A stretch of DNA of 62,704 bases, filler included, from Chrysochromulina tobinii (lineage: Eukaryota): NCBI GenBank assembly GCA_001275005.1. It is 6 parts of 6 records of this genome, joined end to end, with 100 filler letters (N's around TTAATTAATTAA, not from the genome) between each part and the next. Parts side by side here need not be neighbours in the genome. Positions count along the whole stretch, not along the records: positions 1 to 11,605 come from JWZX01000895.1; 5 more parts are not named here. The stretch is one strand, 5' to 3'. Positions within the stretch are counted from its first letter, which is position 1, and every line of letters begins with the position of its first letter. This document shows, in pieces, positions 549 to 44,139 of the stretch. Made by a program: the position numbers and the translations under genes. A model generated the notes under the pieces. That model was given only the letters and a program-made list of their open reading frames with translations. It ran no database searches and had not been told where the DNA came from.

Positions 549-3500
549 TCAAGACGCCCCAACGGACGCCCCGCGCTCGCGCACCCTTGCGCGTACCTCC
601 TTGATCCACGCGCTCGCCACGCGCAACCGCTCGAGGTCCCGCGAGCGCTCCTTGAGCTGCTGCACGCGTTTCTCATCGGAGCTCATCAGCTCCACCAAAT
701 TAGGGCACTCATCAATGGCGTGGGCGAGGTGCTGGCGCAGTCGCCACTCGACGGTCGCAGTACACACCTGATGAGGGAGGCAATCAGACCCAATTCGTAC
801 TCGCCATCAAGCGCAATCAAGCGCAATCAACTCGACGGTCGCAGGACACACCTCCGCGTGCGTGCCCAGCTGGACGTAGTCGAGCAGCCGCCGTTTCATC
901 ACGTGCCAGTACGCGTACGTCTTCAGCTGCAGCTCGACGAGGGCGTGCTCCTCGGTCGCGGGCTCCTTGGAGCGCTTCGCGTTGATGCCCTGTGCAAACT
1001 TCTTGGCGCTTGCGGGCGCGTCGGCCGACTGCTGCACGATATCGAGGTACGCCTGGCTCGTGGTGTGGGGCTCATTCTCCCAAGCGAGCAGCGTCTCGCC
1101 AATGGCCAAGGCACGCTCGAGGCCCTCGGTGATTGCAATCTGGGCGGCGGGCTCGAGTAGGGCGTGTAGGTTGTGGGGGCGGGCGTAGCAGCTCACCGCC
1201 TCCACTACGGACTCTTCCGTCGCCGCGGAGACCTGACGTACGTGGCCCACGATCAGCCCGTGCAGCGGCGCGAGCAGCTTCCGAAGCACGCCGACGGCGA
1301 CCTCGGAAACGATCTCATTCGGGAGACCGAGCCCGCCACGACGCGCGTCCGCTTCAAGGCGCAGCATGGTCCGAAACTGGCGCGAGCCGAAAAAGTCGTC
1401 CGTGTATAGCGCGTCCATCTCGGCACAGAGCGCCTGGTCGCGCGCATGCAGCTTGGCGCAAAGGAGCATGCGTGGCTGTGCCACGTCGCCGCCGCCCCCG
1501 CCCCCGAAGGGCCACAATCGAGAGAATGGCCAGAGCCCAACACGGCGCCCGATGCTGCCCACGTGGGCGCCGAGTTGGGCGCCCCCAACGCCAACGCCGC
1601 CGCCGCCGCCGCCGCCGCCGCTGGCCGCAGCAGCTCCAACGCCCAACTCGGCGCCGCCCATGTTGGGCTGAGCCCCTGTAGGCGCCCAACTCGGCGCCGC
1701 CCATGTTGGGTGAGCCCCTGTAGGCGCCCAACTCGGCGCCCATGTGCCACTCGTGGTCCAAGGCGCGGCCGGAGCGCTCCGCCTGCAGCCGATGGATGAT
1801 CTTGTCGACGACGAGGGCGGCGGTGGCCTTGGCGGCCTTCAATCGGCAACCACGCGACTCAGAGCCGATGGCGTTCAGATCTCACGAGAGAGGCCATCAG
1901 AGGCCATCAGAGGCCCATCAGAGGCCCTCAGAGGCCATCAGTGGGCCATCGCACCTGGAGCGAGTCAGGCACGGTGCCGATGCGCTCAATCTCGGCACGC
2001 AGCTCGCGCTCGCGCTGCTGTATGCGCGTGGCGATCGCGGGGAGCGACTGCGTAATCCTTCGCTCCTGATGAGGGAGGCAATCATTCCCAATTAGTACTC
2101 GCAATCAAGCGTAATCAATCGCAATCAAGCGTAATCAAGCGTAATCCTTCGCTCCTGGAGCTGTACAAGGCGCTGCCCGAGCTCGGCGACTCCCAATCCA
2201 TAGCCCGCGGCCGCCGCGCCTCGCTGCAGCTCGGGGTGGCCGAGATCTCGCAGCTCGAGCTCACGCGCCGTGCTGAGCGAGAGGCGGCTCTCATTCTCGC
2301 GCTGCGTGCGGTTTCGGACCAGGAAGGTGTGCTGCGGCCGCACATGGAGCTCGTGGATGGCGCTCTGCACCTGCATGCAATGAGGGAGGCAATCAGAGGT
2401 CATCAGAGCTCATCAGAGCTCGTGGATGGCGCTCTGCACCTGCATGCAATGAGGGAGGCAATCAGAGGTCATCAGAGGTCCTTAGAGCTCGTGGATGGCG
2501 CTCTGCACCTGCATGCATGCCAGTGCAGGGGCCATCGGACGCAATTAGGGGCACTAATAATGACCGAAGTCATCAGGGACCATCGGACGCAATTAGGGGC
2601 ACTCAGTGGCAGGAGCTCGTGGATCGCGCTTGGCCGTCGTCAATCAAGCGCAATCAAGCGCAATCAGGGGCACTCAGGGGCACTCAGTGGATCGCGCTTG
2701 GTCGCGCCTCAATCAAGCGCAATCAAAGCTCAATCCAGTCGCAATCAAGTCGCAATCAAGCGCAATCCAGTCGCAATCAAGCGCACCTTGGCCGCGAGTC
2801 GCGCCTCATCGTGCATCTCGTCCACCTTGGTGACGCACCTGATGAGGGAGGCAATCAGATGCACTCACACACCATCCGCGGCCCTCACCCTCGTCCACCG
2901 TGGTGACGCACAGCAGCGTGCGCTCGCCCGAGGGATCGACCTGGCGCGCGAGCTGCAGGCTGCCGCTCGTCGAGAAGTCGACCATGGCGCTGACCTGATG
3001 AAGGAGGCAATCAGACCCAATTAGTACTCGCAATCAAGCGCAATCAAGCGCAATCAAGCGCAATCAAGCGCAATCAAGCGCAATCAAGCGCAATCCAGTC
3101 GACCATGGGGCGCTCACCACGTTGAGGACGATGCAGCTCTCGGGGGCCATGTACTGCAGGCACATCTGCTTGATGCGCTGCTCGAGCTCGGCGTCCGGCA
3201 TCGACTGTCCCGCGACCGCGACGCGCGTGATCCCGGGCAGATCGATCAGATCGAGATCGTCGAGATCGCGCCGGTAGATGCGCAGCGTGATCGGCACGTC
3301 ACTCACGTCCTTGGCCGTGCCTGCGAGCGCAATCAAGTCGCAATCAAGTCGCAATCAAGTCGGAATCAAGTCGCAATCAAGTCGCAATCAAGCGCAAATC
3401 AAGTCGCAATCAGGCCGCCATCAAGCCGCAATCAAGTCCTTGGGCGTGCCTGCGAGCCTCTCGGTCATCTCTTCGACCGCGCGTGAGATTTGGGACAGAT

Positions 3501-4104
3501 CGCCGATGCGCTGCTCCGCGATCTCGGGAGCCGAGATGAAGGCGCACTCGCTCCCGCCGCCCTCGCGAAGGCCGCGCAGCTGCAGAACCAGCGGGCAACG
3601 CGTCTTGATGCCCTCGCCGCGCGGCAGGTCGACAGTCGAGAGCGCCTCGAGCAGCGACGTCTTGCCGTGCGACTGGTCGCCGACGACGACGATGCGCGCC
3701 GTCGAGGCCTGCGCCGCGTCGCTGCTGCGTCCCTGCCGGAGGATCGGCACGACCTCGCGCTCAAGGAAGGCGTTGAGCTCGAGCAGCGGGCGCACATGCT
3801 GCTTGAAGCCACTCAGCAGCGAGGAGGTCGTCACGAGCGGCTCCTCAGGCTGGCTGCTGCTACGGTTGCCGCCGAGCCGCTGCTCGACGAGGTTTCTCAT
3901 GCCGAACGGAGAGGCCGCCGCCTCAGCAGCCGCCGCAGCGGCAGCGCTCGCGGCGGCGGCCACGACGGCAACCGTCGCGCGGAGGCTCCCCGACGCGGCA
4001 GATCTGGCCGTGGCGGCGGTGCGCGTAGCGCCCATGCACCCGCCGCGTCGGATCGCGCCGAGCGGTCGCGTGCAGACGCGGAAGCCGATGGCAACTCGCG
4101 CCAT
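549..4104 (-). CDS. Mx/DRP4-like dynamin-family GTPase, spliced. Exons approx. 4104-3450, 3320-3118, 2994-2912, 2838-2787, 2370-2155, 2065-1955, 1836-852 (one unresolved frame break near 1640-1743) and 767-549
   Basis: After splicing: G1 VVVGDQSHGKTS, G2 IKTRCPL, G3 LIDLPGI, G4 TKVD; middle domain LGQRLVQLQERRITQSLP; GED-like AYWHVMKRRLLDYV. Intron phases are consistent. Start at ATG 4104 (alternative ATG 4035). Confidence 0.9.
768..851 (-). other. GT-AG intron (84 nt) flanked by a 24-bp exon duplication
   Basis: Plus-strand ACTCGACGGTCGCAG(T/G)ACACACCT at 746-769 and 830-853. Filler is TTGATTGCGC units plus the acceptor cassette. Splicing joins the two ORFs in frame. Confidence 0.88.
1837..1954 (-). 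other. GT-AG intron (118 nt) with TGATGGCCTC decamer repeats and no obvious flanking duplication
   Basis: CAG|GTGCGA...TTGAAG|GCC joins DSLQ to AAKATAAL in frame. Confidence 0.75.
2066..2154 (-). other. Probable GA-AG intron (89 nt) flanked by a perfect 19-bp duplication
   Basis: Plus-strand GCGTAATCCTTCGCTCCTG at 2050-2068 and 2139-2157. The intron ends in TGATTGCCTCCCTCATCAG. Removal gives LVQLQ|ERRITQSLP. Confidence 0.75.
2371..2786 (-). other. GT-AG intron (416 nt), microsatellite-rich, with repeated copies of the acceptor plus downstream exon start
   Basis: AAG|GTGCGC...TGCATGCAG|GTGCAG. 69-bp period units start at 2347, 2416 and 2485. Confidence 0.8.
2839..2911 (-). other. GT-AG intron (73 nt) with a 22-bp duplication of the G4 motif codons
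   Basis: Copies at 2817-2838 (encodes CVTKVDE) and 2890-2911 (CVTTVDE). Ends in the acceptor cassette. Confidence 0.9.
2995..3117 (-). other. GT-AG intron (123 nt) with an exon-start duplication and a (TTGATTGCGC)n array
   Basis: The intron starts GTGAGCGCCCCATGGTCGACT and the downstream exon starts GTCAGCGCCATGGTCGACT. The intron ends CTGATTGCCTCCTTCATCAG. Confidence 0.88.
3321..3449 (-). other. GC-AG intron (129 nt) flanked by a 22-bp duplication straddling AG|GC
   Basis: Plus-strand GTCCTTGG(C/G)CGTGCCTGCGAGC at 3307-3328 and 3436-3457. Filler is GACTTGATTGC-type units. Confidence 0.85.
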
Positions 4105-32569: not shown

Positions 32570-35500
32570 TTATGCACCGTCTTCGCCGTTCAACAACACG
32601 CCCGCATGCAGCCACGGAGGCTGCTTGCACGCCAGCAGCCGCTCAATCTCGCACTGCCAGTGCCATGCCGTGTCGGAGACGTCGCACGCCGCCGCGTACG
32701 CGTTGCGCCGCAGCGCGGCGTAGTGCTCGGGCTGCGCGTACAGCGCCAGCGCACGCTCGAGCGAGCTCATCAGTGCCGAGTGCGAGTGCCCTGAAAAGGT
32801 CAGTCCGGAGCCCTTACGGCTGCGCTCGTCGTAGTCGGCCACTCGCTCGCGGAGGCCGCCGGCGCGCGAGCAGACGAGCGGCGTGCCGGCTGCGAAGAAC
32901 TCCTCGCGCACGAGCCCCGAGGGTTCGAAGAGGGAAGGCATGAGCCCAAAGTCCGCCGCGATGCTTGCGAGCGCGCCGTCCTCGAAAAAGGTGGCTGGGT
33001 CGGCCCAAAAGTGGTCTGGGTACGTTGCCTGGAGCGAGGCCATTTGTGGGCCGATGAATAGGCTATCCAGGCAATCAATAGGCCCCATAGGCCATCAAGA
33101 GGCAATCAAGAGGCCATCAAGAGGCCATCAAGAGGCCACCCGTGGAGATCGCACCTGGAGTGTGGCCATTTGGTCCGCGCACCGACGAGCGTATGCGTCC
33201 GAGGGGTCTGCGTGGCCGCAGACACACAGCTGCAGCTGCCCACGCGCGGCTTGGAGGATGGCCGGCACGCAGTCGAGGAGCAGATGGATGCCCTTTTGGT
33301 ATGAGATCCGCCCGAGGAAGAGGAGCAAAGGCACCGACGAGCGCACGCCAGATTCGCCAAAGCAGCGGCGCTGTAGCGTCGCCTTCGCGGCGGCATGGTC
33401 GCCATGCGCGGCCAGCTCGGCACGGCGCCGGCCGAGGGGCAGCCCCGAGGCGCATGCAATCGCTCCACCCGCCGCACGTAGCAGCGGCGCGTAGCTCGAG
33501 GATGCGAGGAGCTCGTCCCGATAGCTCGTCGAGACGGTCGCCCACGCACACGAGCAGAGGAGCGCGGCCCGAGTGAGCGAGATCGTGCCGAGATTGGGCT
33601 CCTGGCTGCCGCCCTTGCGACCCCCGCCCTCGTGCAGCAGACGGTGCGGCAGCTGGTGCAGCGCCGTCAGTTGCGTCGCCGGCGCATCCACCACCAACTT
33701 ACCATCGTACCCGGGCTCAAGGTTGTGGATGAGGTGCACGAAGAGCGCCGACTCGCCGAGCGCTCTCACCCCACTCGCCGCACTACCAGCCCAGCCCGGG
33801 TGTTGGGCGTAGGGCGCAGCGAGACCGGCCACCCAGTCGTTGGTCACGACTGCGTGCGGCAGCGGCTCTCCGCGCTCGCGCAGTCGGTCGAGCAGGAGCA
33901 GCGCGCCGCGCGCGAGCAGCGCGGCTGGGAGCAGTTTGCGCGCGGTACCACCTGTGGGGTCAGCAGAGGTCAGCAGAAGTCTTCAGAGGCCATCAGAAGT
34001 CCTCAGAGGCCATCAGAGGTCATCAGAGGCCATCAGAGGTCCTCAGAGGCCATCAGAGTTCCTCAGAGGTCACCTGTGGGGTAGGGCGCGCCAAAGCAAG
34101 CGCCATTCTCAAGGAGATGCACCGTCACTCCATGCTCCTGTATGGTGCGCACGCCCACGGACATGTGGGCGTGCCCGAGGGGAACTTGCAACGAGTACTC
34201 GAGGCGCATCGATGCCCAACGCGGCGCGTAGCACCGGTAGGCCGGCGCGATCACGCGTACGTGCGCGCCGCGCGCGGCGAGCGCGGCCGACAAGTGCGCG
34301 GTCATCGTGCCGAGCCCTCCGACGGATGCCCAGCGACCGAGTTCGGGGGTGATCAAGACGAGCCTCCGCGGCTGTGCCACCTCCACAAGCGCCCGGTGCA
34401 ACCGTGCAATTGGATCTCGGTGCAATCTCGGTGCAATTGGCGCGTTTGGGGCGGGCTGGAGGGGCGCAGCGGGTGTGGCGGGCGCGGCCGGCGGGCCTGC
34501 TGCGGCGGGCGGGCGCAGCGAGTCGCCGGCCGAGGCCGCATCCCCCGGCGCATCCCCCGAATGCCCACTGAGGACGCAATTGGGCGAGGCGGACGTTGGG
34601 TATGCGTCGTCGCTCGTCTTGACAACCGCTTGGTGTGCCTGCCATCGAGGGGTGGGGATTTCGGTCTGCGCGAGCCGACTCATTGCGCCGAGCGCACGCC
34701 GGATAGCCTGCGTCGCGCGCTGCGCGGCCTCCGCGGTCGTCAGAGCCTCGCATCTCGGTACGATCTCGGTACAATCTCCCGTGGCCGTGAGTGCCTCGGC
34801 AGCACGATCTCCCACACGATCTCCCACGCCGTCACGAGCGCCGTCGCGAGCGGTGTCCGACCCAAATATGTGAATCGGCTCGAGCGACTCGTCAGAGTGC
34901 TCTCCACCTCCAGCCCCAGCCCCAGCCCCAGCCCCAGCCCCTCCCACAGGCTCATGCAGCTCGTCAGAGTGCAGCGCACCTGCCTGGGCGGCCATATGCA
35001 CTGCGGCTGAGAGCATGAGTGCTAACGGTGCCATCATCCCGTCCTCGATGGGCATGAGCGACGTGAGGAGCGCGAGCAGACGGTGGCCAGAGGCGTTCGC
35101 GTCCGCGGACGCGCAGATGCGCTGCAGCGCCGTCGCCGCAGCATTGTGCTTCGCGTACGCACTCGGCCGTTGGCTCAGCCGACGGAGTGCACTGAGCAAG
35201 TGCGACCGGTAAGTCAGGTGCTTGGAGCAGTGCACGCGCAGGGCGACCAAGCCGTTGGCAGGCACACGTGCATGCAGCTGAGAGTGAGCCAGCTCTTGCC
35301 GAGAGAAGACCTCGAGCGCAGGCTCCTCAGCCTGGCATCCGGACGACATGACGCCAGGAACTCTGGCCACGGCGCTGACGCTGCTCGTGGAGGTCAGCAT
35401 GCGGTGGACGGCAACGAGCGCCTGGGGATCGTCATCGGCGCCATGGAGAGCTTCGGCGGAGACGTTGACTGCGACTGTCGTCGCAGCGCCGCTCAGATCG

Positions 35501-39679: not shown

Positions 39680-39995
39680 CTTGGGTTGTGGCCATTTTGG
39701 GCAGCGAACATCAAGGCGGTCATGCCGTCGGACCTTGCCTTAATTGGGTCCGCCTTTGCCTCTAGCAGGACAAGGGCGCACCGCTCATGGCCATTTGGGG
39801 CAGCCCATATCAAGGCGGTGACGCCATCGTTGTTCTGAGCGCTCACCACGGCGCCCGCCTCAAGCAGGACGCGAGCAACCTGCTCGTGGCCATTTAGAGC
39901 AGCGAACATCAAGGCGGTCCTCCCGTCGGACAATGCCCTATTTGGGTCCGCCTTTGCCTCGAGTGTTACTTTGCCTCATTTTGGTCCGCCTTTGC
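39680..39995 (-). pseudogene. Extra out-of-frame ankyrin units downstream of the NACHT-ankyrin ORF
   Basis: TALMFAALNGHEQVARVLLEAGA and similar units from the same 99-bp family. Confidence 0.75.
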
Positions 39996-42276
39996 CTCAG
40001 TAAATCACAGACAGCAGAATGTCCACCCCTCTCCGCAAGTTTCAGAGCATTCCAGCCGCTGAGACCAGAAAGCTCCTTGTTCCGGTCAGCTCCCGCCTCG
40101 AGCAGGACAAGAGCAACCTGCTCGTGGCCATTTAGAGCAGCGAACATCAAGGCGGTCATGCCGGAAGACATTGCCCTATTTGGGTCCGCCTTTGCCTCGA
40201 GCAGGACGAAAGCAACCTGCTCGTGGCCATTTTGGGCAGCGATGATCAAGGCGGTCACGCCGTCGGACCTTGCCTGATTTGGGTCCGCCTTTGCCTCGAG
40301 CAGGACGAAAGCAACCTGCTCGTGGCCATTTAGGGCAGCGCACATCAAGGTGGTCGAGCCGTTGGACCTTGCCTGATTTGGGTCCGCCTTTGCCTCGAGC
40401 AGGACGAGAGCAACCTGCTTGTGGCCATTTTGGGCAGCGAAACCCAAGGCAGTCGTGCCGTCAGACATTGCCTTATTTGGGTCCGCCTTTGCCTTGAGCA
40501 GGACGAGAGCAACCTGCTCGTGGCCATTTAGGGCAGCACACATCAAGGTGGTCGTGCCGACGGAATCTGTCATATTTGGGTCCGCCTTTGCCTCGAGCAG
40601 GACGAAAGCAACCTGCTCATGGCCATTTAGGGCAGCACACATCAAGGTGGTCACGCCGCCGGACCTTGCCATATTTGGGTCCGCCTTTGCCTCGAGCAGG
40701 ACGAGAGCAACCTGCTCGTGGCCATTTAGAGCAGCGAACATCAAGGCGGTCATGCCGTTGGACTGTGCCTGATTTGGGTCCGCCTTTGCCTTGAGCAGGA
40801 CGAAAGCAACCTGCTCGTGCTGGCCATTTTGGGCAGCGAACGTCAAGGCGGTCCTGCCGTCAGACATTGCCTTATTTGGGTCCGCCATCGCCTCGAGCAG
40901 GACGTGAAGGCAGCGCTCGTGTCCAAAACGGCTCGCCAGCATGAGTGGAGTGCCACCGTCGGAATCGGCGAGCGCCGCATCCGCCCCTCGAGTGAGGAGC
41001 TGCTGCACGATCGGCTCGGCGCCCTCCTCCGCGGCGAGGTAGAGCGCGGTGCAGCCCTCGGCGCTCTGCGCATTCAGCGTGGAGGCGTTTGAGGATGCCA
41101 GCAGCTTGGCGACGGCCGCGAGTTGCTTGCGGCGGGACGCGACCATGAGCGCCGTCATCCTCCCCGCGTCCTGCGTGCGTGCGAGGGTTGCCAGGTCCCC
41201 CGTCGCGGCGGCGCGCAGCCGCTCCGTGCGCGTGCACGCCTCGTCGGTGAACTCGTGGTCCGAGAGCGTCGGCACAAAGAGGCGGACGACGGCGTGCTGC
41301 TTGGCGTTCCGTGCTGCTCCGACTGCGGACTGGAGCTGCGTGTTGTTCTCCTCCTTGTCGGCGCCCTTTGCGACGAGCGCACGGCAGATGGCCACGTGCC
41401 CGCCGGCGGCGGCGCGGTGCAGCGGCGTGTTGGCGCGCTCGTCCGTGACGAGCGGGTTGACACCCGTGTCGAGCAGCGCCTCGACGAGCGCCGCGTCGCC
41501 CGCCCCTGCGGCGAGACGGAGGAGCGCGCCCGCGCCGTCGGACGCAACGACGAGCGCCTTGGTGCGCGGCAGGCCCTTCTTCTCGTCCCACCCCATGATC
41601 TTGACGTCCACCGCGTCGCCCTCCACGCGTGCGACCACGGCCGGCGTCCAGAAGTTCCCGTCGCGGGCGAGCACTCTCTTGCCCACGACGAGCGCGTCTG
41701 CAGCAGCCAGCTTCCCCGCCTCGCGCGCCGCCTCGATCGCCACGCCCTTGGCCGCCTCGAGCGCCGTGGGCAGCCACGCGGCAGGCAGTCCCTTGCGCAC
41801 GAGCGTGGCGAGCACGTGCAGCCGCCACGCCTCCTGGGCTGGCACGGCCGCCGCCTCGGCTACCGGCAGCTGCGCCGCCTTGACGAACGCGTCGCCAAAC
41901 GCCGCGCCACCCGCCTGCACGCCCATGAGAACGGCGTTCGTCCACCACACGCCCCACGCAAACGACGACAGCGGCAAGCCGCCATCGCCGATGGCGAGCA
42001 TCGCATAGTACTCCTGGAAGGAGAGATGGAAGGCCTGCATCTGCAGCGGCTTCGCCTCGAGCAGGCGCACGAGCGGCAGCCCGTCTCGCGCCACCAGGGC
42101 GCGCAGCTCGTCGGCCGCGCGCTGGGCGGCGGCCATGCCGATGCGCGCGCTGATACGCGCGGCGGCGGCGCCGAGGTGTACCTCGGTGATGATGCGCTGC
42201 TCGGCGGCGTGCGCCTCGAAGAAGGTGGCTTGCAGCAGCGCGCGCGCGTCGTCCGACACGGCGGCGCCCGACCGTT
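39938..42276 (-). CDS. NLR-like (NACHT winged-helix plus ankyrin repeat) protein, 5'-truncated by the contig end
   Basis: FHLSFQEYYAM is typical of the NACHT-associated winged-helix region. Divergent ankyrin repeats follow, then about 8 near-identical 33-aa repeats. The P-loop is not in the window. Confidence 0.75.
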
Positions 42277-42376: not shown

Positions 42377-42477
42377 CCCTACGTAGCCGCTGGTTTCGAG
42401 ACCTGAAAATGCAATCCTGAGGAGTTAGGTCGAAAAAACGCTGTTTTGAGCGGCAGTTGACCTTTGTTGACCTCAAC

Positions 42478-43740
42478 CGAGGACCGGCGCCACTGGTCAC
42501 CATTGGTCACCCCTGGTCGCCCGTGTGCGCCCATTGAAGCCAGAACCCCCTGGCACCTTCTGGCACCCTCTGGTACCTATGGGCGCGCATGGGCGCACAT
42601 GGGCGACCGCTGGCGTGTACCGACGTATGAGCGCCCATCGTACCGAGGACCGGCGCCACTGGTCACCACTGGTCGCCAGCGAGCGCTTGTGTGCGCCCAT
42701 TGAAGCCAGAACCCCCTTGCACCTTCTGGCACCCTCTGGTACCGATGGGCGCTCATGGGCGCTCATGGGCACACATGGGCGCCCGCTGGAGCGTATGAGC
42801 GCGTACCGAGCACCTGCGCCAGTGGTCGCCAGTGGTCGCCAGTGGTCATCAAAGACCCGCACGCCTGAGACATAGCAGCTCAGGGAGGGCTCTGGCGGCC
42901 CTGCTCACATGGACAGAGTGACCACTTGTGTAGCATTTTGGGTAGCCTTAGTGCTCGGAGCCGTGGCACACGGAATGCGTGTACCGAGGAGTGGCGCCAC
43001 TGGTCACCCCTGGTTGCCAGTGAGCGCCCGTGTGCGCCCATTGAAGCCAGAACCCCCTGGCACCTTCTGGCACCCTCTGGTACCCATGGGCGCTCATGGG
43101 CGCTCATGGGCGCACATGGGCTACCGCTGGCGTGTACCGACGTATGAGCGCCCATCGTACCGAGGACCGGCGCCACTGGTCACCACTGGTTGCCAGTGAG
43201 CGCCCGTGTGCGCCCATTGAAGCCAGAACCCCCTGGCACCTTCTGGCACCTTCTGGTACCCATGGGCGCTCATGGGCGCTCATGGGCGCACATGGGCGAC
43301 CGCTGGCGTGTACCGACGTATGAGCGCCCATCGTACCGAGGACCGGCGCCACTGGTCACCACTAGTTGCCAGTGAGCGCCCGTGTGCGCCCATTGAAGCC
43401 AGAACCCCCTGGCACCTTCTGGCACCCTCTGGTACCGATGGGCGCTCATGGGCGCTCATGGGCGCGCATGGGCGACCGCTGGCGTGTACCGACGTATGAG
43501 CGAGTATCTATTGAGGACAGTCCGGGGCCAGTGCTCGCCAGTGGTCGCCAGTGGTCATCAAAGACCCGCACGCCTGAGACATAGCAGCTCAGGGAGGGCC
43601 CCGGCGGCCCTGCTCACGTGGACAGAGTGACCACTTGTGTAGCATTTTGGGTAGCCTTAGTGCTCGGAGCCGTGGCACACAGAATGCGCGCGAGGACCGG
43701 CGCCACTGGTCGCCCCTGGTCGCCCCTGGTTGCCCCTGGC
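42478..43740. repeat. Satellite with a monomer of about 176 bp and a higher-order period of about 709 bp
   Basis: GAGGACCGGCGCCACTGGTC recurs near 42479, 42646, 43162, 43338 and 43692. The block AGTGGTCATCAAAGACCCGCACG occurs at 42841 and 43550. Confidence 0.9.
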
Positions 43741-44139
43741 TGCCAATAGTTGCTCATGATTGCTCACCTTATATTCATCTGATGAAAGGATTCAGCAGAA
43801 AGAAGCGGGGTCCGGGGGCGGCAGCCCCTGGGAAAGAAAAGCGGGGGTCCGGGGGCGGCAGCCCCTGGAATAGAAAATTCATCATTCATTGCCAACAGCC
43901 CTTTGAATGTTCATCCCCTTTCATCACCAAGATTGTACCAAGTTCTCAGATGACTTTTTGTTGACTGACAAAGGTGGTGTGAAATTCACAGGAAAATTTC
44001 CAAATCCATTCGTTTACAGTACTGTGAGTTGCGCAGGTGACCCGCTGGAAGGACACCTCAACGTCTGCAAAAGCTCTTGGTTAGCTCTTGGGCCTCAAGC
44101 TGGATCAATTTTGGCCATGAAGGTGAGCTTGTGGCCTTG

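What the first reader, a model, noticed from the sequence alone, without database searches (positions are those of the whole stretch)
768..3035. Shared 3' acceptor cassette reused in independent introns
Seen: three introns (3' ends at 768, 2066, 2995) end in a near-identical cassette of about 40 nt, GCGAGTAC(T/G)AATTGGG(TC/AA)TGATTGCCTCC(C/T)TCATCAG. The intron ending at 2839 has its last 20 nt. Positions 2371 and 2440 carry the variant CTGATTGCCTCCCTCATTGCATGCAG. The cassette has branch-point-like TACTAAT/CTGAT, a pyrimidine tract and CAG. At 2839-2911 and 2995-3117 the upstream exon does not end in AG, so the acceptor must come from the cassette. Inference: it is a copied, mobile splice-acceptor module.
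Basis: partly seen in the sequence, partly recalled or inferred. Interest (0 to 1): 0.8.

Follow-up and report, generated by a model that had tools for sequence, protein, structure and literature searches.

The report
New introns borrowing neighbours' splice ends
In the haptophyte alga Chrysochromulina, introns in many different genes end in the same 20-base splice-acceptor sequence and often begin with a copy of the exon that follows, and they were likely made recently by copying the end of a nearby intron into a duplicated site, which offers a rare, testable view of how new introns arise.

Summary
The cassette is real and sits at the 3' ends of minus-strand introns of a Chrysochromulina dynamin-like gene. 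The upstream half is confined to this gene (0 of 140 loci), where three introns share 63-81 nt. A typical intron is a 9-55-nt copy of the next exon's start (donor), then 10-11-nt repeats, then the core (acceptor). In 20 of 38 such introns the upstream exon has no AG. Same-gene introns share private bodies, one 101-nt intron is copied whole within its gene, and allele proteins point to presence/absence polymorphism. Best reading: not a discrete mobile element but intron gain by templated insertion, in which a duplicated exon site receives the 3' end of an existing, usually neighbouring intron. Whether the template is DNA or RNA is open. This is a new variant of known intron-gain routes; I found no description of it in ten literature searches.

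The parts
549..4035 (-). Host gene: dynamin/Mx-like GTPase of Chrysochromulina, at least seven introns
   Evidence: PF00350 relatives; near-identical cluster members named C. tobinii and C. parva; exons 3900-1954 joined in a script give 372 aa without a stop and align across introns A-D with a 49%-identical homologue
768..851 (-). Intron G, 84 nt, GT-AG: 22-nt copy of next exon start (21/22), TTGATTGCGC repeats, 37-nt cassette
   Evidence: RNA contigs of X11 and X14 skip 84 nt; present in 33 and absent in 21 allele-like proteins
768..804 (-). 37-nt cassette copy; last 20 nt (768-787) are the widespread core
2066..2154 (-). Intron E, 89 nt, GA-AG, inside a 19-nt direct repeat; cassette at 2066-2102; repeats carry an exon-derived variant unit (GATTACGC)
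   Evidence: X12 skips 89 nt; an X11 piece runs 14 nt into the intron end; sequence
2371..2786 (-). Intron D, 416 nt, variant acceptor ending TTGCATGCAG at 2371-2396
   Evidence: removal restores alignment with homologue; the variant also ends 5 other distinct sites in the fetched loci; RNA joint not among rows shown
2347..2517 (-). 69-nt tandem duplication (2.5 units) of acceptor plus exon start; holds the 2440 copy
2839..2911 (-). Intron C, 73 nt, GT-AG: 22-nt copy of next exon start (21/22), 20-nt core at 2839-2858; upstream exon ends CT
   Evidence: retention gives a stop and breaks the dynamin TKxD motif (motif name recalled); RNA pieces shown retain it, X14 contigs break at 2901 and 2809 as a spliced/retained fork would (inference)
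2995..3117 (-). Intron B, 123 nt, GT-AG: imperfect 20-nt copy of next exon start, repeats 3029-3095, cassette 2995-3031; upstream exon ends GTG
   Evidence: X12 and X14 skip 123 nt; 8 allele proteins read into a different intron start here
3321..3449 (-). Intron A, 129 nt, GC-AG, no cassette: both splice sites come from a 21-nt duplication around a repeat filler
   Evidence: X14 skips 129 nt; absent in 8 and present in 21 allele proteins

Best explanation
The cassette is the working 3' end (acceptor and likely branch point) of a class of Chrysochromulina introns that likely arise by templated insertion, in which about 20 bases of exon starting at a donor-like GT are duplicated and the gap is likely filled by copying the repeat array and acceptor of an existing intron, most often one in the same gene. 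Shown: acceptor use, sense orientation, the exon-copy donor, a fixed 3' and variable 5' boundary, excess sharing within genes, one whole-intron copy. Inferred: a broken or slipping DNA end runs past the site, switches to the neighbouring intron somewhere in its 10-11-nt repeats, copies through CATCAG and re-anneals at the recipient's G/GT start, as in microhomology-driven end joining or synthesis-dependent annealing; selection keeps the spliceable products; each new intron is a template for the next, so the 20 nt nearest the fixed end become the common core while longer bodies stay gene-specific. The branch A is predicted to lie in the core's CTGAT, 17 nt from the end (untested).
For: Exon-start copy upstream of the core in 50 of 112 sites versus 3 of 336 controls (49/112 versus 2/112 and 1/560); 38 are true donors, 9-55 nt, median 19, 20 without upstream AG, frame open in 31 of 38 after removal versus 7 of 38 if kept. 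Next exon starts GT in 86 of 119 against 22 of 597 after exonic AG. No conservation upstream of the core across loci except repeat periodicity. Same-locus pairs share long upstream stretches in 7 of 124 versus 87 of 16,347; permutation 1 of 300. L037 intron 144-244 matches intron 3012-3112 at 97 of 101 bases including a 5' segment that copies the exon after 3112, which gives the direction of copying. Same-locus pairs with shared bodies also share 6 or more exon-start bases in 3 of 11 versus 248 of 16,347 (post hoc, small n). Allele proteins differ in introns A and G and at a third site; two alleles read a G duplicate with the exon's own residues (P0116, P0131). Introns with the same filler but both sites from the duplication exist (intron A), which a general gap-filling process explains.
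Against: 62 of 112 sites show no detectable exon copy. Microhomology between the copy's end and the repeats was not significant across loci (5 of 38 versus 6.5%, p=0.10), though visible at A, B and E. Window introns B, E, G share only G or GT at their exon starts. Polymorphism was seen in predicted proteins only, not DNA, and could be loss; no DNA-level empty site was found among the few overlapping loci. No DNA-versus-RNA template test was possible.
Confidence: 0.55

Rival explanations
1. RNA-templated version: the 3' end of an excised or half-spliced intron RNA is reverse transcribed at a nick, or reverse-spliced into the same transcript and copied back, so the fixed end is the splice acceptor itself and the variable end is truncated cDNA.
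For: Exact stop at CAG, variable 5' extent, duplication of about 20 nt, sense-only orientation and same-gene preference all fit; whole-intron copy in L037 resembles the same-gene near-identical pairs ascribed to reverse splicing in Oikopleura (PMC3879977, passages).
Against: Intron A and similar introns carry the same filler without the acceptor end; shared exon-start bases between source and recipient suggest copying ran into the source exon; 60 of 182 sites are tandem multi-copy groups, a DNA-level behaviour; no reverse transcriptase was looked for.
Confidence: 0.2
2. The introns are old; ectopic gene conversion between repeat arrays has homogenised their 3' ends, tandem re-duplication made the exon copies, and the allele differences are precise intron losses.
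For: Tandem re-duplications of acceptor plus exon start are common; one site shows two different intron ends in different alleles (P0088 type versus P0124); 62 of 112 sites lack the copy.
Against: Conversion does not explain a donor that is itself a copy of the next exon in 38 sites, nor the L037 copy carrying another site's exon segment; a 75%-identical relative reads through the G site and a 49%-identical homologue through A-D, although their DNA was not seen.
Confidence: 0.12
3. A short non-autonomous transposon (introner or SINE-like) carries the acceptor and recruits the donor from its target-site duplication, as the first reader and an earlier scan note proposed.
For: Same logic as Polarella classes 4/5 and Symbiodinium elements (bioRxiv 2020.10.14.339549); very many copies; introners are reported in a marine Chrysochromulina MAG and Emiliania (PMC9860276).
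Against: No shared body beyond 20 nt across loci except generic repeats; duplication length 9-55 rather than a fixed 3-9; only a 5-bp inverted repeat, -1.3 kcal/mol; same-gene bias is not expected of a trans-mobilised element (inference).
Confidence: 0.09
4. The 20-mer is simply a strongly selected fused branch-point/acceptor signal that arose independently in many introns.
For: It holds CTGAT, pyrimidines and CAG; always sense and terminal.
Against: Other introns in the same genes splice with unrelated ends; 107 of 183 repeat arrays do not end in it; private 23-85-nt extensions shared within genes need copying.
Confidence: 0.04

Closest known systems
Introner-like elements of Symbiodinium and Polarella glacialis classes 4/5 and 6/8/10 (bioRxiv 10.1101/2020.10.14.339549; read parts 1-2 of 4)
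   Same: Insert carries the 3' splice site; the 5' end of the duplicated target gives a GT/GC/GA donor; next exon starts like a donor.
   Different: There: fixed 3-8-nt duplications and family-wide sequence. Here: 9-55-nt duplications, only 20 nt shared widely, bodies shared mainly within a gene.
Introners of a marine Chrysochromulina MAG (PMC9860276; passages, supplement rows)
   Same: Same genus label, intron gain with a duplicated target.
   Different: Its figured family has a 4-bp duplication, carries the 5' site and co-opts the 3' site, the reverse of this. C. tobinii and C. parva appear only in the input list of the stored (cut) supplement.
[quoted passage not shown]
   Same: New introns flanked by direct repeats, parallel gains at one site.
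   Different: Daphnia gains are described as unrelated to each other (PMC3879977); here the filler is traceable to other introns and brings a ready acceptor.
Intron transposition / near-identical same-gene intron pairs in Oikopleura dioica (PMC3879977 and PMC3443670, passages)
   Same: Whole intron copied within one gene (L037).
   Different: Four pairs in about 75,000 introns there; here most events copy only the 3' part and add a new exon-derived donor.
Tandem genomic duplication of AGGT-containing exon (PMC3443670, passages)
   Same: Exon duplication supplies splice sites; fits intron A.
   Different: In 20 of 38 cassette introns the duplication has no AG, and foreign filler lies between the copies.

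Membership tests
Introner / introner-like element | Many introns alike over most of their length | tested here: not met
   Conservation ends one base upstream of the 19-mer; cross-locus extensions are generic repeats
Introner / introner-like element | Fixed short target-site duplication (3-9 bp) or none | tested here: not met
   9-55 nt, median 19, n=38; shorter copies fall below the detection limit
Introner / introner-like element | Terminal inverted repeats (DNA-transposon types) | tested here: not met
   Only CTGAT/ATCAG within the core, -1.3 kcal/mol
Introner / introner-like element | One splice site carried, the other taken from the target | tested here: met
   RNA joints
Introner / introner-like element | Sense orientation inside genes | tested here: met
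   106:5 strand concordance; Pfam 15/116 versus 0/111; codon model 96/117
Introner / introner-like element | Presence/absence between close strains | tested here: inconclusive
   Seen in predicted allele proteins, DNA not seen
Introner / introner-like element | Autonomous partner element or transposase | not testable with these tools
   No whole genome held
Intron gain by double-strand-break repair | Direct repeats flanking new introns above background | tested here: met
   50/112 versus 3/336; control is other loci, not conserved introns
Intron gain by double-strand-break repair | Microhomology at insertion junctions | tested here: inconclusive
   5' junction 5/38 versus 6.5%, p=0.10; exon-start sharing 3/11 versus 1.5%
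Intron gain by double-strand-break repair | Dependence on a repair polymerase or ligase | not testable with these tools
   Needs genetics
Intron transposition (reverse splicing) | Whole intron copied precisely to a new site | tested here: met
   One case, L037 144-244 from 3012-3112, 97/101
Intron transposition (reverse splicing) | No new exon duplication at the site | tested here: not met
   38 sites have their own exon copy as donor
Tandem genomic duplication | Both splice sites from the duplicated AG|GT segment | tested here: not met
   20 of 38 lack upstream AG; met only for non-cassette intron A
Known structured RNA | Match to an Rfam family | tested here: not met
   0 matches to E=1 in 700-3500

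The most novel reading that the evidence does not exclude
Chrysochromulina introns breed without any transposon: the spliced-out intron RNA of a gene serves as template to patch breaks in that same gene, its 3' end defining a ready acceptor and the duplicated exon a donor, so genes that have one such intron keep gaining more, and the process is still segregating in wild populations.
Probability: 0.2. Interest if true: 0.92.

Novelty: new variant of a known kind. Interest (0 to 1): 0.74.

Why it matters
How new spliceosomal introns arise is a long-standing question, and most large-scale gains are credited to transposon-derived introners. Here sequence, RNA and allele evidence point to a transposon-free, self-feeding route in which existing introns donate their 3' ends. 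Each event records its target (the duplication), often its source (a neighbour's private sequence) and sometimes its direction. Two sequenced, named species carry the gene, so source-recipient maps, allele frequencies and the DNA-versus-RNA template question can be tested directly. It also matters for annotation: both public gene models of this gene mis-splice introns C-E.

Tried and rejected
No whole genome is held and the contigs behind the loci are not searchable, so no genome-wide count exists; 1,322 contigs of DNA run X1 lay on the 3.8-kb stretch, 577 only in part, a rough hint of hundreds of other places, not a copy number. Viral contigs: 0 matches. Rfam: none. Search for intron-less DNA among the loci gave self-matches only; overlapping locus pairs differed only in repeat number. 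Junction microhomology test not significant. A U12-type branch site, a hammerhead core and a C/D box in the reverse strand were considered from recalled motifs and dropped: no matching donor, no GAAA partner, no Rfam hit. Telomerase filling was considered; the units are 10-11 nt and varied, not a telomere repeat (recalled as TTAGGG). The 3' end of intron F (donor 1953) was not resolved. The first spliced translation used a boundary off by one for intron A and was corrected. Two paper ids recalled from memory were wrong or not held, so the report of 10-11-bp intronic repeats in Emiliania (Read et al. 2013) is recalled, not seen. Rows dropped: overlapping loci L004, L021, L027, L029, L052, L053, L059, L067, L069, L070, L072, L076, L077 and L083, L093, L096, L119, L126; L074 and L075 were dropped from the same pair counts as supposed duplicates, which one search shows they are not; L007 as a probable chance match; L025 from the exon-start test.

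Full report
Observation. A 16-nt core pattern has 6 matches against 0.07 expected, all within 768-3013 of the 62.7-kb window. The full cassette is 37 nt. The host is a dynamin-like gene of Chrysochromulina: members of a 90% cluster are named C. tobinii and C. parva. Removing introns A 3449-3321, B 3117-2995, C 2911-2839, D 2786-2371 and E 2154-2066 gives 372 codons without a stop that align across A-D with a homologue. The 2440 variant is one unit of a 69-nt tandem duplication within D, not its own intron.

Splicing. RNA contigs skip 84 nt at G (X11, X14), 89 at E (X12), 123 at B (X12, X14) and 129 at A (X14). C is run through in the pieces shown for all three RNA runs; X14 contigs break at 2901 and 2809, exactly where a spliced and a retained path would part and rejoin, which is a hint only; 167 joints and 2,430 pieces were not shown. 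In a second gene (L037) with 8 cores within 2 mismatches, RNA joints end at 6 of them, a seventh is bridged in the piece table, and the one at 244 is not among the rows shown. Together 10 of 12 core sites laid are shown as intron ends; L037 was chosen for having the most cores.

How far the cassette reaches. The next base is G in 113 and the next two GT in 86, GC in 20; GT follows exonic AG in only 22 of 597. In 65 non-overlapping loci (252,783 bases) pairs of cores lie on the same strand 106 times and on opposite strands 5 times. Open frames after the core hit Pfam in 15 of 116 sense and 0 of 111 antisense cases, often from the first residues, mid-domain; a codon model prefers sense in 96 of 117 (control 0.50). 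So the core is widespread and the 40-nt form is private to this gene, where B, E and G share 63-81 nt.

Anatomy. In 50 of 112 sites with enough flank, a copy of the next exon's start lies upstream of the core, against 3 of 336 controls. Twelve follow another core (tandem re-duplications); 38 form the donor: GT 32, GC 3, GA 2, CT 1; copies 9-55 nt, median 19; introns 50-272 nt; 18 have an upstream AG and 20 do not; removal leaves an open frame in 31 of 38, retention in 7. Between copy and core lie 10-11-nt units built on (C/T)TGAT. 62 of 112 sites show no copy at this threshold. Related introns take the acceptor from a copy of the upstream exon instead (intron A; several); 76 of 183 repeat arrays in the core-selected loci and the window end in the core.

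Local copying. Same-locus pairs share the 20 nt above the core more than other pairs (8.4 versus 7.0; 1 of 300 label shuffles reached it) and share long extensions in 7 of 124 versus 87 of 16,347 (three of the seven are window pairs; pairs are not independent). The best cross-locus matches are generic repeat runs; the best same-locus matches include private sequence. In L037 the intron at 144-244 matches that at 3012-3112 at 97 of 101 bases, and its 5' segment copies the exon after 3112, not its own, so 3012 is the source; the two sites share TCG|GCAA. Among 11 same-locus pairs with shared bodies, 3 share six or more exon-start bases, against 1.5% of other pairs (post hoc). A test for microhomology at the copy/filler junction was not significant (5 of 38, p=0.10), although at A, B and E the copy's last bases match repeat units present in the gene.

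Alleles. Among listed cluster members (at most 15 per cluster, not a population sample) 55 proteins span the G site: 33 read into intron G, 21 read through, and 1 is a 75%-identical relative that reads through. Two of the 21 are spliced models; seven begin in what reads as another intron absent from the window, one of them on 74 contigs up to 9.8 kb, which argues for genomic DNA. One protein has a core-like intron end at that same third site. Intron A is missing in 8 of 29, and those 8 share a haplotype and a different B start. DNA was not seen, so gain versus loss is inferred.

Mechanism. A fixed 3' end, variable 5' entry, variable duplication, neighbour-biased source and acceptor-less relatives fit templated gap filling: about 20 nt of exon are duplicated at a donor-like GT, the end switches into an existing intron's repeats, copies through the acceptor and rejoins at G/GT (0.55). 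An RNA template gives the same geometry and explains the exact CAG end (0.20). Conversion of old introns with losses (0.12), a discrete introner (0.09) and a merely selected signal (0.04) fit less well.

Comparison with print. The splice-site logic equals that of dinoflagellate introner classes that carry the 3' site (bioRxiv 2020.10.14.339549, parts 1-2 of 4 read), but those have 3-8-nt duplications and family-wide sequence. PMC9860276 (passages and supplement rows, file cut when stored) reports introners in a marine Chrysochromulina MAG with the reverse logic and lists C. tobinii and C. parva only as inputs in the stored part. PMC3443670 and PMC3879977 (passages) describe repeat-flanked gains in Daphnia and four same-gene intron pairs in Oikopleura. 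The C. tobin genome paper mentions introns once (PMC4580454, passages); PMC12130899, PMC11282704 and PMC12480563 (passages) added nothing specific; polymerase-theta papers were seen as a listing only. Ten searches found no description of this architecture; the library lacks most subscription papers and bioRxiv supplements are closed, so introner sequence lists there could hold the core. An earlier AI note on the same genome (e1-2577349) saw a repeat-flanked intron family and read it as a mobile element; it agrees on the footprint and is not independent support.

Verdict. Observation confirmed, interpretation partly supported: a copied acceptor, but as the common end of intron-to-intron copying, not a 40-nt element. 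New variant of a known kind; interest 0.74.

Noticed in passing
L037:144-244 and L037:3012-3112: Whole 101-nt GC-AG intron copied within one gene, 97/101 identical, carrying the source site's exon duplicate, so direction is readable.
   Followed up: yes
L037:1047-1088, 1379-1499, 1858-1939, 2249-2291 and many other loci: A second shared intron module, GCATGCAAGTGCTCACCACGGCG followed by a C-rich tract and CCCCACAG, in 64 distinct contexts of the fetched loci; RNA joints end three such introns in L037.
   Followed up: partly
window 33030-33154 and 33952-34074 (minus): Repeat-filled introns of the mirror type: acceptor from a copy of the upstream exon end; the first starts with GTGCGATCTCC, seen at 6 distinct sites.
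   Followed up: partly
window 2066-2154: GA-AG intron supported by an RNA skip; GA and GC donors arise simply from the duplicated exon start.
   Followed up: partly
window 1236 region (minus, exon codons for V-S-C-Y-A-R): Site without an intron in the window but with two apparently different introns in allele proteins (P0088 type, P0124): possible parallel gain.
   Followed up: partly
L068 (whole locus): A family-A DNA polymerase gene crowded with core and repeat introns; whether it is polymerase theta was not checked.
   Followed up: no
P0132 and P0133: Public C. tobinii and C. parva models of this gene skip or mis-splice the region of introns C-F relative to the homologue alignment.
   Followed up: partly
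window 42476-43744: 176-nt satellite built of 10-nt subunits next to an assembly gap; 99-nt ankyrin-like tandem repeats at 39688-40904 (family name recalled, not tested).
   Followed up: no
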